Origin: Patescibacteria group bacterium
GTDB lineage: Bacteria > Patescibacteriota > Patescibacteriia > Magasanikbacterales > GWA2-37-8
Reading direction: 5' to 3'
Assembly: GCA_041661385.1 (NCBI GenBank)
Contig: JBAZUP010000001.1
Location: forward strand, 495,920-559,919
DNA: 64,000 nt
In this document: piece after piece, positions 8,313 through 8,693 of the stretch
How the letters are laid out: each line of letters starts with the position of its first letter
Numbering within the stretch: position 1 is the first letter of the stretch
Notes under the pieces: model-generated
The model's database searches: none
What the model saw: only the letters and a program-made list of their open reading frames with translations
What the model was told of the DNA's origin: nothing
Made by a program: the position numbers and the translations under genes

Positions 8313-8693
8313 CTCGCTATCGCTCAATCAAATTATCCTTTTTCCTATAATACTTATTTCCCTAGCCCTGCGCAGACGGCGGATACTTTCATAACTGAAA
8401 GTATCCAAAGGTTTTAGGGAGATCGTCGATATAACCACTCGCTTGCGAAAGCTCGGGATATCGACTTCCCCAAACCCCCGTTGATTGACCAATTACCAAT
8501 TGTCTTCCGAGCATTTGTGAAGCGATGTCACTTGTCACGACGAAGTGAGCGTGGGTGGCACAGCTGTTTGAGCCAACAGGCGAGTTCTGTGCCACAGCGA
8601 TACAAGTCGTTGAAAGTGGCAGAGTGGAACAACAGCTCGGCAGCTTTTGATTACTTTTCGCTGACGAAAAGTGATGCCAGCCCGACGAGGGCT
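8313..8693 (+). repeat. Structured repeat family, copy 2; mosaic, with the middle module inverted and relocated
   Basis: Same start block (8313-8330), identical hairpin ggatactttcataactgaaagtatcc (8381-8406), identical 58-nt 3' block with the acttttcgctgacgaaaagt hairpin (8653-8672), and closing hairpin agccc/gacga/gggct (8679-8693) that covaries with copy 1. The core of the copy-1 middle module appears reverse-complemented at 8555-8595. Confidence 0.75.

What the first reader, a model, noticed from the sequence alone, without database searches (positions are those of the whole stretch)
8313..8693. Copy 2 of the repeat is a mosaic, with the middle hairpin module reverse-complemented and moved
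The core of the stem-enclosed module of copies 1 and 3 (ggcagaactcg...ctcaaacagctggc) appears reverse-complemented at 8555-8595 in copy 2 (gtggcacagctgtttgag...cgagttctgtgccac). It is still closed by a perfect 9-bp stem, but sits about 150 nt further 3'. The original slot instead holds an unrelated hairpin (8419-8468). Module shuffling or inversion inside an otherwise collinear element suggests recombination at the palindromic stems, or a modular RNA whose domains are exchangeable. Copy 2's closing hairpin also overlaps the stop codon of the convergent ftsW-like gene.
Basis: seen in the sequence. Interest (0 to 1): 0.5.

Follow-up and report, generated by a model that had tools for sequence, protein, structure and literature searches.

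The report
Mirror-armed hairpin repeat with conserved apex
The "inverted, moved" hairpin in copy 2 is the right-hand version of a hairpin domain that normally sits in both mirror-image arms of a non-coding, insertion-polymorphic repeat, and its 21-base apex motif is identical in Patescibacteria, Blautia and beta-proteobacteria and matches no Rfam family.

Summary
CAGAACTCG-N(8-12)-CTCAAACAGCTG occurs three times in the window: copy 1 (+), copy 3 (-) and reverse-complemented in copy 2 at 8561-8589. None is expected by chance.

The repeat has two mirror-image arms. Copy 2's right arm, reverse-complemented, is collinear over about 210 nt with the left arm of a related element in another Patescibacteria genome. 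That includes the extended stem of the module hairpin (80% identity over 81 nt). Copies 1 and 3 carry a different, short-stem version that shares only the 21-nt core.

A metagenome scan found the same core at the apex of long hairpins in more than 120 loci. Stems covary fully while the core stays fixed. Wherever the contig leaves room, two such hairpins face each other 180-500 nt apart, always in the same polarity.

Close relatives (UvrB 86-89% identical) lack all three copies at syntenic sites, so the copies are insertions. No Rfam family, transposase or constant neighbouring gene was found.

Best reading: a new MITE/REPIN-like structured repeat family whose hairpins act in single-stranded form. 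Function is unknown. A modular ncRNA is the main rival.

The parts
8312..8695 (+). Copy 2, full element: 5' box, short left arm, long right arm, terminal hairpin
   Evidence: BLAST against copy 1 gives 71% over 395 nt. Alignment. RNA fold -136.8 kcal/mol, z = -6.7.
8312..8331 (+). 5' box TCTCGCTATCGCTCAATCAA, followed by TATAAT at 8346-8351. It resembles an unpaired variant of the module.
   Evidence: Three matches in the window against 0.01 expected. In the related copy L023 a 37-nt hairpin is inserted exactly at the module's insert position. The sigma-70 consensus scan did not flag it.
8381..8406 (+). Left-arm hairpin GGATACTTTC-ATAACT-GAAAGTATCC
   Evidence: 11-nt inverted match. It is a homologue of the right-arm hairpin in mirror orientation.
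8417..8471 (+). Hairpin X, which occupies the left-arm slot that holds the module in copies 1 and 3
   Evidence: 8-bp core at 8425-8432 and 8458-8465. Not scored by the module covariance model.
8555..8595 (-). Module hairpin of the right arm. Core motif at 8561-8589 on the minus strand. Perfect 9-bp closing stem.
   Evidence: Covariance model 50.6 bits, E = 7e-13. 80% identical over 81 nt to the L134 left-arm hairpin in inverted orientation.
8486..8695 (+). Whole right arm of copy 2. Its reverse complement is collinear with the left arm of the L134 element.
   Evidence: Alignment A7.
8644..8678 (+). Right-arm hairpin CTTTTGATTACTTTTC-GCTGAC-GAAAAGTGATGCC, the mirror image of copy 3's arm hairpin
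   Evidence: 16-nt and 13-nt exact reverse-complement matches to 5638-5672.
8677..8695 (+). Terminal GC hairpin that overlaps the ftsW-like stop codon (8692-8694)
   Evidence: Compensatory change against copy 1: CAGCGC/GCGCTG versus AGCCC/GGGCT. Relatives end ftsW with TAA; here the stop is TAG, and its G is the element's last base.
1812..2176 (+). Copy 1: 5' box (1812-1831), short left arm with module hairpin (1912-1968), long right arm with T hairpin (2029-2091)
   Evidence: 57.4 bits. The syntenic site is empty in L130 and L131.
5569..5734 (-). Copy 3: 5' box plus one arm with a module hairpin (5578-5634). It lies between a promoter-like site for uvrB and the uvrB ATG.
   Evidence: 52.4 bits. 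Promoter-like site TTGATT-17-TAAAAT at 5827-5799 on the minus strand. Absent from L130 and L131.

Best explanation
The three repeats are copies of a non-coding, strongly structured element built from two mirror-image arms.

Anatomy (shown):
- Each arm runs: a small terminal GC hairpin, then a hairpin of the type CACTTTTC-loop-GAAAAGTAAT, then a slot that holds a long hairpin.
- In the family at large, that slot holds the module hairpin. Its apex is an invariant internal loop, 5'-CAG AACUC G[small variable hairpin]C UCAAACAG CUG-3'. Both arms carry it, so the right-hand one reads as the reverse complement.
- In this genome the slots have diverged. Copy 1 has a short-stem module on the left and a different hairpin (T) on the right. 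Copy 2 has an unrelated hairpin (X) on the left and a long-stem module on the right. Copy 3 is a solo left arm.
- Copy 2's module therefore belongs to its right arm. It is orthologous to the module hairpin of a long arm seen in a related genome. It is not copy 1's module flipped.

Inferred:
- The elements are insertions. They are absent at syntenic sites in close relatives.
- They most likely spread as non-autonomous MITE/REPIN-like units.
- Their hairpins are recognised in single-stranded form (ssDNA or RNA) through the invariant apex by a still unknown trans-acting factor.
- Slot differences arise by recombination between copies.

Side effects here: copy 3 became part of the uvrB 5' UTR, and copy 2 supplies the last base of the ftsW stop codon and possibly a terminator.
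For: Mirror arms:
- Copy 3's arm hairpin is the exact reverse complement (16 + 13 nt) of the right-arm hairpin of copies 1 and 2.
- Copy 2's right arm (reverse-complemented) is collinear with the L134 left arm. Copy 1's right arm is collinear with the L134 right arm. BLAST gives 80% over 81 nt, E = 3e-14, on the opposite strand.

Family-wide pairing:
- 37 loci carry two modules, all '+' on the left and '-' on the right, 200-500 nt apart.
- Single-hit loci with enough flank have an inverted partner arm 180-390 nt away on the expected side.

Structure under selection:
- In the stem around the core, 79.1% of cells are paired against 58.9% in shuffles. The covariation score is 0.498 against 0.165. 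No shuffle of 500 reaches it, and slid controls reach at most 0.255.
- All four Watson-Crick pair types occur at several stem positions.
- Fold z-scores are -7.7 and -6.7.

Single-strand use: one strand of the module hairpin folds better in 17 of 19 groups.

Insertion polymorphism: L131 and L130 (UvrB 86% and 89% identical) are syntenic but empty at the sites of copies 1, 2 and 3.

No coding capacity and no constant neighbour gene.

Taxonomic breadth: Patescibacteria, Blautia, and Variovorax, Ralstonia and Paraburkholderia.
Against: - No transposase, RAYT, TnpB or recombinase was found in the window ORFs scanned or next to the related loci.
- Target-site duplications are not established. There is only a possible 4-nt GATT at copy 3.
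- The conserved part is the hairpin apex, not the termini, which is the opposite of ordinary TIR transposons.
- In Blautia-type genomes the element is single-copy at one syntenic locus per species group. That looks more like a gene than a selfish repeat.
- Full-length Patescibacteria copies fold better on the strand running from the 5' box to the 3' hairpin in 5 of 5 cases. They also have a TAnnnT hexamer at a fixed distance from the 5' box. Both features fit a transcribed RNA.
- The mechanism of slot replacement is inferred, not shown.
Confidence: 0.55

Rival explanations
1. A modular structured non-coding RNA family. Each copy would be transcribed from the 5' box region to the terminal hairpin. 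Hairpin domains would be exchangeable modules, and the invariant apex loop would bind a conserved protein or RNA, or be catalytic.
For: - A TAnnnT hexamer sits at a fixed distance downstream of the 5' box in five copies.
- The terminal hairpin is followed by a T run in copy 2.
- Compensatory changes occur in several hairpins.
- The element strand folds better than its complement in 5 of 5 full-length Patescibacteria copies.
- The element is single-copy and syntenic in gut Bacillota.
- The fixed 5-nt and 8-nt internal loop is typical of RNA tertiary or protein-binding motifs.
Against: - A transcript containing two mirror-image arms carries the motif once in each orientation. Copies 1 and 2 would then present opposite versions.
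- The 5' box has no recognisable -35 element and was not found by the sigma-70 scan.
- Solo arms occur without the box.
- The copies are absent from close relatives.
- There is no Rfam match.
Confidence: 0.3
2. One reading: a recent inversion and transposition of the copy-1-type module inside copy 2, by recombination at its palindromic closing stem or by a site-specific invertase.
For: - The 21-nt core is identical and reverse-complemented.
- Contig L029 switches element type exactly at the module.
Against: - The closing and extended stems of copy 2's module are unrelated to those of copies 1 and 3. They are 80% identical to those of a long-arm hairpin in L133/L134.
- The flanking blocks AAACCCCCGTTG, GAGCATTTGTGAA and GAGTGGAACAAC keep their orientation in copies 1 and 2.
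- No recombinase was found among the window ORFs scanned.
- The left '+' and right '-' polarity holds across the whole family.
Confidence: 0.05
3. A DNA-level functional site (speculative): paired hairpins on opposite strands that act on single-stranded DNA during replication or transfer. Examples would be priming or loading signals such as the ssiA/ssiB pair of IncQ oriV, or a recombinase or nucleoid-protein site. This comparison rests on my own knowledge, not on a test here.
For: - The better-folding strand is the minus strand for left arms and the plus strand for right arms. This mirrors lagging-strand templates around a centre.
- The hairpin next to the terminus has 7-14 bp arms around a 6-nt spacer in all lineages.
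Against: - There are several copies per chromosome, including solo arms.
- No associated replication or recombination genes were found.
- Only 2 hits in 2.9 million viral contigs.
- In Ralstonia the hits lie on chromosome-like megaplasmids rather than at replication origins.
Confidence: 0.1

Closest known systems
REPINs (REP doublets forming hairpins) mobilised by RAYT transposases
   Same: Non-coding intergenic repeats made of two inverted hairpin-forming units. They are thought to act as single-stranded hairpins, occur in several copies, and can occur as singlets.
   Different: REP units are 20-40 nt, and their conserved tetranucleotide sits at the foot. Here each unit is 60-250 nt and the conserved part is the apex. 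No RAYT gene was seen. The core is identical across three phyla, whereas REPs are lineage-specific.
Bacterial MITEs and modular repeats (Correia, ERIC, RUP, and pneumococcal BOX with its boxA/B/C modules)
   Same: Short, non-coding, insertion-polymorphic and strongly folding. They are often co-transcribed with neighbours and supply terminators or 5' UTR structure. BOX elements are mosaics of interchangeable modules.
   Different: There is no sequence relation. No parent IS is known and no clear target-site duplication was found. Conservation is centred on an internal hairpin apex rather than on terminal inverted repeats. MITE families are usually confined to a genus, while this core spans phyla.
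Large structured ncRNAs without known function (the class of ROOL, GOLLD, OLE, raiA)
   Same: Several hundred nucleotides of covarying helices with a few invariant loops. The elements are intergenic and present in Clostridia and in uncultured lineages.
   Different: No Rfam model matches. The mirror-image architecture and the presence/absence polymorphism are unlike those RNA genes.

Membership tests
MITE (miniature inverted-repeat transposable element) | Short non-coding element in several copies | tested here: met
   Three copies of 165-385 nt in 64 kb with no credible ORF. Beta-proteobacterial relatives are multi-copy.
MITE (miniature inverted-repeat transposable element) | Presence/absence polymorphism at orthologous sites | tested here: met
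   L130 and L131 are syntenic but lack all three copies.
MITE (miniature inverted-repeat transposable element) | Terminal inverted repeats matching those of an autonomous IS with a transposase | tested here: inconclusive
   Long inverted arms exist. No transposase was found in the scanned part of the window or beside more than 120 loci. Whole genomes were not searched.
MITE (miniature inverted-repeat transposable element) | Target-site duplication | tested here: inconclusive
   Only a possible GATT at the ends of copy 3. The flanks of copies 1 and 2 are too diverged from relatives to judge.
REP/REPIN-RAYT | Inverted doublet of hairpin units | tested here: met
   Two-module loci are always arranged facing each other.
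REP/REPIN-RAYT | 20-40 nt REP unit with a conserved GTAG-type foot, and a linked RAYT gene | tested here: not met
   Units are 60-250 nt and conservation lies at the apex. No recurrent neighbouring gene was found.
Any Rfam 15 RNA family | Covariance-model score at or above the gathering threshold | tested here: not met
   The window and 34 related loci gave only RNase P, tRNA and rRNA hits at gathering threshold. E-value mode gave only chance snoRNA and miRNA-type hits.
Inverton (site-specific invertible segment) | Both orientations of the segment between the inverted repeats, plus a nearby recombinase | tested here: not met
   Internal blocks keep one orientation in copies 1 and 2 and in relatives. 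No recombinase domain appeared in the ORFs scanned. Read-level heterogeneity cannot be tested here.

The most novel reading that the evidence does not exclude
The invariant apex, CAGAACUCG-[hairpin]-CUCAAACAGCUG or its complement, marks a previously undescribed and ancient class of structured nucleic-acid element. It sits on fully covarying stems, is arranged as facing pairs, and is shared by Patescibacteria, Bacillota and Betaproteobacteria. The element could be a new functional RNA motif (protein-binding or catalytic). It could also be the ends of a hairpin-recognising ssDNA mobile element whose enzyme is still unknown.
Probability: 0.35. Interest if true: 0.8.

Novelty: new variant of a known kind. 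Interest (0 to 1): 0.6.

Why it matters
For this window, the analysis replaces a story of in-place inversion with a simpler anatomy: two mirror arms with hairpin slots. It also shows that the repeats are recent insertions. They now form the uvrB leader and the end of ftsW in a reduced Patescibacteria genome.

More broadly, 21 identical bases sit on completely diverged but compensating stems in three phyla, with no Rfam family and no linked gene. That is the signature of a strongly constrained single-stranded recognition motif.

The motif occurs in cultivable, tractable bacteria (Blautia, Ralstonia, Variovorax). Its partner and function can therefore be tested directly.

Tried and rejected
- **Genome-contig scan** with the 3' block GAGTGGAACAACNGCTCGGCAGC. 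It gave one hit, in Nocardia, which I did not inspect and took to be chance.
- **Viral scans.** The arm hairpin gave 0 hits. The 5' box gave 7 hits. Three look like chance. Four related phage contigs share extended similarity, which I did not follow up. The module gave only 2 hits.
- **E. coli genomes and phage records.** No match.
- **Literature.** Searches by sequence string and by keywords found nothing relevant.
- **Linked protein.** Clustering all ORFs within 3 kb of the module found only housekeeping genes: aconitase, MatE, BMC, DUF362, RND/OEP efflux, ABC and kinase. Pfam scans of 30 window ORFs found no transposase or recombinase.
- **K-turn in the reverse-complement apex.** Tandem G.A pairs are possible, but the 3-nt bulge is not adjacent to them. 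The register is fixed by covariation, so I rejected this.
- **sigmaE-like promoter (GAAC...TCAAA), LexA box, dif/Xer site, IHF site, Tn3 inverted repeat, group II intron domain V.** These were resemblances from memory only. Spacing or sequence does not fit.
- **First G.U versus A.C count.** It used a flawed alignment and was replaced by strand-specific folding.
- **Diversity-generating retroelement (DGR), retron and integron attC.** I considered these on sequence inspection and from memory only. No reverse-transcriptase or integrase domain turned up in the ORFs that were scanned, and the sizes and motifs do not fit.

Full report
**1. What is in the window**

The window comes from a Patescibacteria (CPR) metagenome-assembled genome. 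Its UvrB is 100% identical to a protein that NCBI names as from a "Patescibacteria group bacterium". The same stretch lies on a 217-kb ENA contig.

BLAST of the repeat against the window finds three copies:
- Copy 1 at 1812-2176 (+). It lies between the divergently transcribed uvrA and a gene of 149 aa.
- Copy 2 at 8312-8695 (+). It lies between a 79-aa gene and the convergent ftsW-like gene.
- Copy 3 at 5734-5569 (-). It covers only the first 165 nt of the element and ends about 15 nt before the uvrB ATG.

Copies 1 and 2 are 71% identical overall. They consist of identical blocks separated by unrelated hairpins. Both fold far better than shuffles, with z = -7.7 and -6.7.

**2. The observation**

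The pattern CAGAACTCG-N(4-16)-CTCAAACAGCTG occurs at 1924-1956 (+), 5590-5622 (-) and 8561-8589 (-). No match occurs in 100 shuffles.
- In copy 2 the motif is therefore reverse-complemented relative to the element.
- It is closed by a perfect 9-bp stem, 8555-8563 with 8587-8595.
- It lies about 137 nt further 3' than in copy 1.
- The slot it occupies in copies 1 and 3 holds another hairpin in copy 2 (8417-8471).
- The terminal hairpin (8677-8695) overlaps the ftsW stop codon. Relatives end ftsW with TAA. Here the stop is TAG, and its G is the last base of the element.

**3. The element has two mirror-image arms**

The reverse-complement dot plot shows that the hairpin near the 5' end of copy 3 (GGCATCACTTTTC-ATAACT-GAAAAGTAATCAAAAG) is the exact reverse complement of the hairpin near the 3' end of copies 1 and 2. 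The match is 16 + 13 nt outside the loop. The element thus carries long inverted arms, each containing its own hairpins.

A related Patescibacteria genome (L133/L134, UvrB 82% identical) has an element upstream of uvrB.
- Its LEFT arm contains a module hairpin that matches copy 2's RIGHT-arm hairpin on the opposite strand. The match is 80% over 81 nt, E = 3e-14, and includes the extended stem CGCTGTGGC.C...G.GCCACCCACGC.
- An alignment of all arms shows that copy 2's right arm, reverse-complemented, is collinear with the L134 left arm over about 210 nt.
- Copy 1's right arm is collinear with the L134 right arm. Both of these carry another conserved hairpin, T (GATTTTTTCAA...TTGAAAAAATC), in the same slot.
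- Copies 1 and 3 carry the motif in a short left arm with a different closing stem (GGGGGYCGG...GCGGCCCCC).

Copy 2's module is therefore a distinct long-arm lineage of the domain. It is not copy 1's module flipped and moved.

**4. The family outside this genome**

- The motif always sits at the apex of a hairpin with 10 to more than 100 bp of stem.
- The stems are completely different between groups but stay complementary.
- Group 1 of the human-gut loci belongs to Blautia (Bacillota). Its neighbouring aconitase is 100% identical to a Blautia protein.
- The GC-rich group matches Variovorax, Ralstonia megaplasmids, Paraburkholderia and Comamonas.
- Six loci are close relatives of the window's element.

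Covariation was counted on a 56-sequence alignment:
- 79.1% of stem cells are paired, against 58.9% in shuffles.
- The covariation score is 0.498, against 0.165 in shuffles. No shuffle of 500 reaches it.
- Slid registers reach at most 0.255.
- The core itself is invariant by ascertainment, because the search pattern fixed it.

Arrangement:
- With a relaxed pattern, 37 loci carry exactly two modules. All are '+' on the left and '-' on the right, 200-500 nt apart.
- Most single-hit loci with enough flank have an inverted partner arm 180-390 nt away on the expected side.
- The beta-proteobacterial and Patescibacteria arms share the same order of parts: terminal GC hairpin, CACTTTC...GAAAGTAA.CAAAG hairpin, module hairpin.

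An inverted right-hand module is thus the normal state of the family. Copies 1 and 2 have each kept only one of the two.

**5. Is it known?**

No Rfam 15 family reaches threshold in the window or in 34 related loci. E-value mode gives only chance hits to generic long hairpins. There is no match in E. coli genomes or phage records. Only two hits occur in 2.9 million viral contigs. Literature searches found nothing. No protein family recurs next to the element. Thirty window ORFs show no transposase or recombinase domain.

**6. Mobility**

Two relatives, L131 (UvrB 86% identical) and L130 (89%), keep the gene order ftsW ... uvrB - DUF218 - 149 aa - uvrA. They have no element at any of the three sites.
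- The alignments place copy 3 cleanly between a conserved promoter-proximal stretch and the uvrB start. There may be a 4-nt GATT repeat at its ends.
- They place copy 1 inside the uvrA/149-aa spacer.
- They place copy 2 directly after the ftsW stop.
- A sigma-70-like site, TTGATT-17-TAAAAT at 5827-5799 on the minus strand, lies upstream of copy 3. Copy 3 is therefore now part of the uvrB leader.

The copies are lineage-specific insertions.

**7. RNA or DNA?**

The evidence is mixed.

For a single-stranded function:
- The stems covary.
- One strand of the module hairpin, the reverse complement of the motif as written, folds better in 17 of 19 groups even with the apex masked.

For a transcript in Patescibacteria:
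- All five full-length copies fold better on the strand running from the 5' box to the 3' hairpin.
- A TAnnnT hexamer follows the 5' box at a fixed distance.
- Copy 2 ends in a hairpin followed by a T run.

Against a simple RNA gene:
- Mirror arms present opposite versions of the motif on one transcript.
- Solo arms occur without the box.
- The copies show presence/absence polymorphism.
- The consensus scan finds no sigma-70 promoter at the box.

The 5' box itself (TCTCG-CTGTCG-CTCAATCAA) resembles the module without its closing stem. In L023 a 37-nt hairpin sits exactly where the module has its variable insert.

**8. Verdict**

The mosaic is real. It is explained by a two-armed architecture with hairpin slots that differ between copies, not by inversion and relocation within copy 2.

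The most likely nature is a non-autonomous, MITE/REPIN-like structured repeat whose invariant apex is a recognition motif used in single-stranded form (confidence about 0.55). A modular ncRNA family is the main rival (0.3).

The cross-phylum identity of the apex, the lack of any Rfam family and the lack of any partner gene make the family itself more interesting than the mosaic that led to it.

Noticed in passing
window 1812-1831, 5715-5734 (-), 8312-8331; L023 about 7090-7160: The 5' box TCTCG-CTGTCG-CTCAATCAA looks like an unpaired variant of the module (AACTCG-insert-CTCAAACAG). In L023 a 37-nt hairpin is inserted exactly at the insert position.
   Followed up: partly
L002:2041-2058, L004, L006, L008 (IMG/VR contigs): Four related phage contigs carry TTCGCTTTCGCTCAATCAATTTATTC followed by an AT-rich stretch with TATAAT. 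The similarity to the 5' box region extends beyond the searched pattern. No arms follow the box in these contigs.
   Followed up: partly
window 5836-8272: The ftsW-uvrB interval is a variable hotspot. L131 has only a 67-aa ORF there. L130 has a 76-aa ORF plus a homologue of the gene at 7725-8024 (80% aa identity). The window has six small genes (unknown 170 aa, GNAT, NUDIX, DUF2164, 112 aa, 79 aa). These are bracketed by copy 3 and copy 2 in inverted orientation, with their 5' boxes facing the genes.
   Followed up: partly
L029:1460-1660 compared with L032:2960-3190: Contig L029 is 98.7% identical to the Blautia locus L032 up to the module. It then continues with the 3' half of a different hairpin type. 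This is either recombination at the conserved core or a metagenome assembly chimera at a shared 30-mer.
   Followed up: partly
window 58551-58580: A perfect 14-bp palindrome with a 2-nt loop (TGGGGTTAAGTACA..TGTACTTAACCCCA) lies between the convergent genes 57616-58575 and 58702-60183. It is probably a bidirectional terminator. The module covariance model picked it up only as a generic hairpin.
   Followed up: no
window 32821-33218 (-), 19876-19950, 29582-29666: Bacterial class A RNase P RNA (176 bits), tRNA-Ile with anticodon TAT, and tRNA-Leu(CAG).
   Followed up: no
L095:7744-7768 and 8126-8151; L032:3526-3564: In the gut elements, the second (partner) hairpin carries a diverged core (CTGTCTGAG...CGAGTTATG or ...CAG) with compensating changes in the three closing pairs. 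The core is therefore not absolutely invariant, and the exact-match scan under-counts the family.
   Followed up: partly
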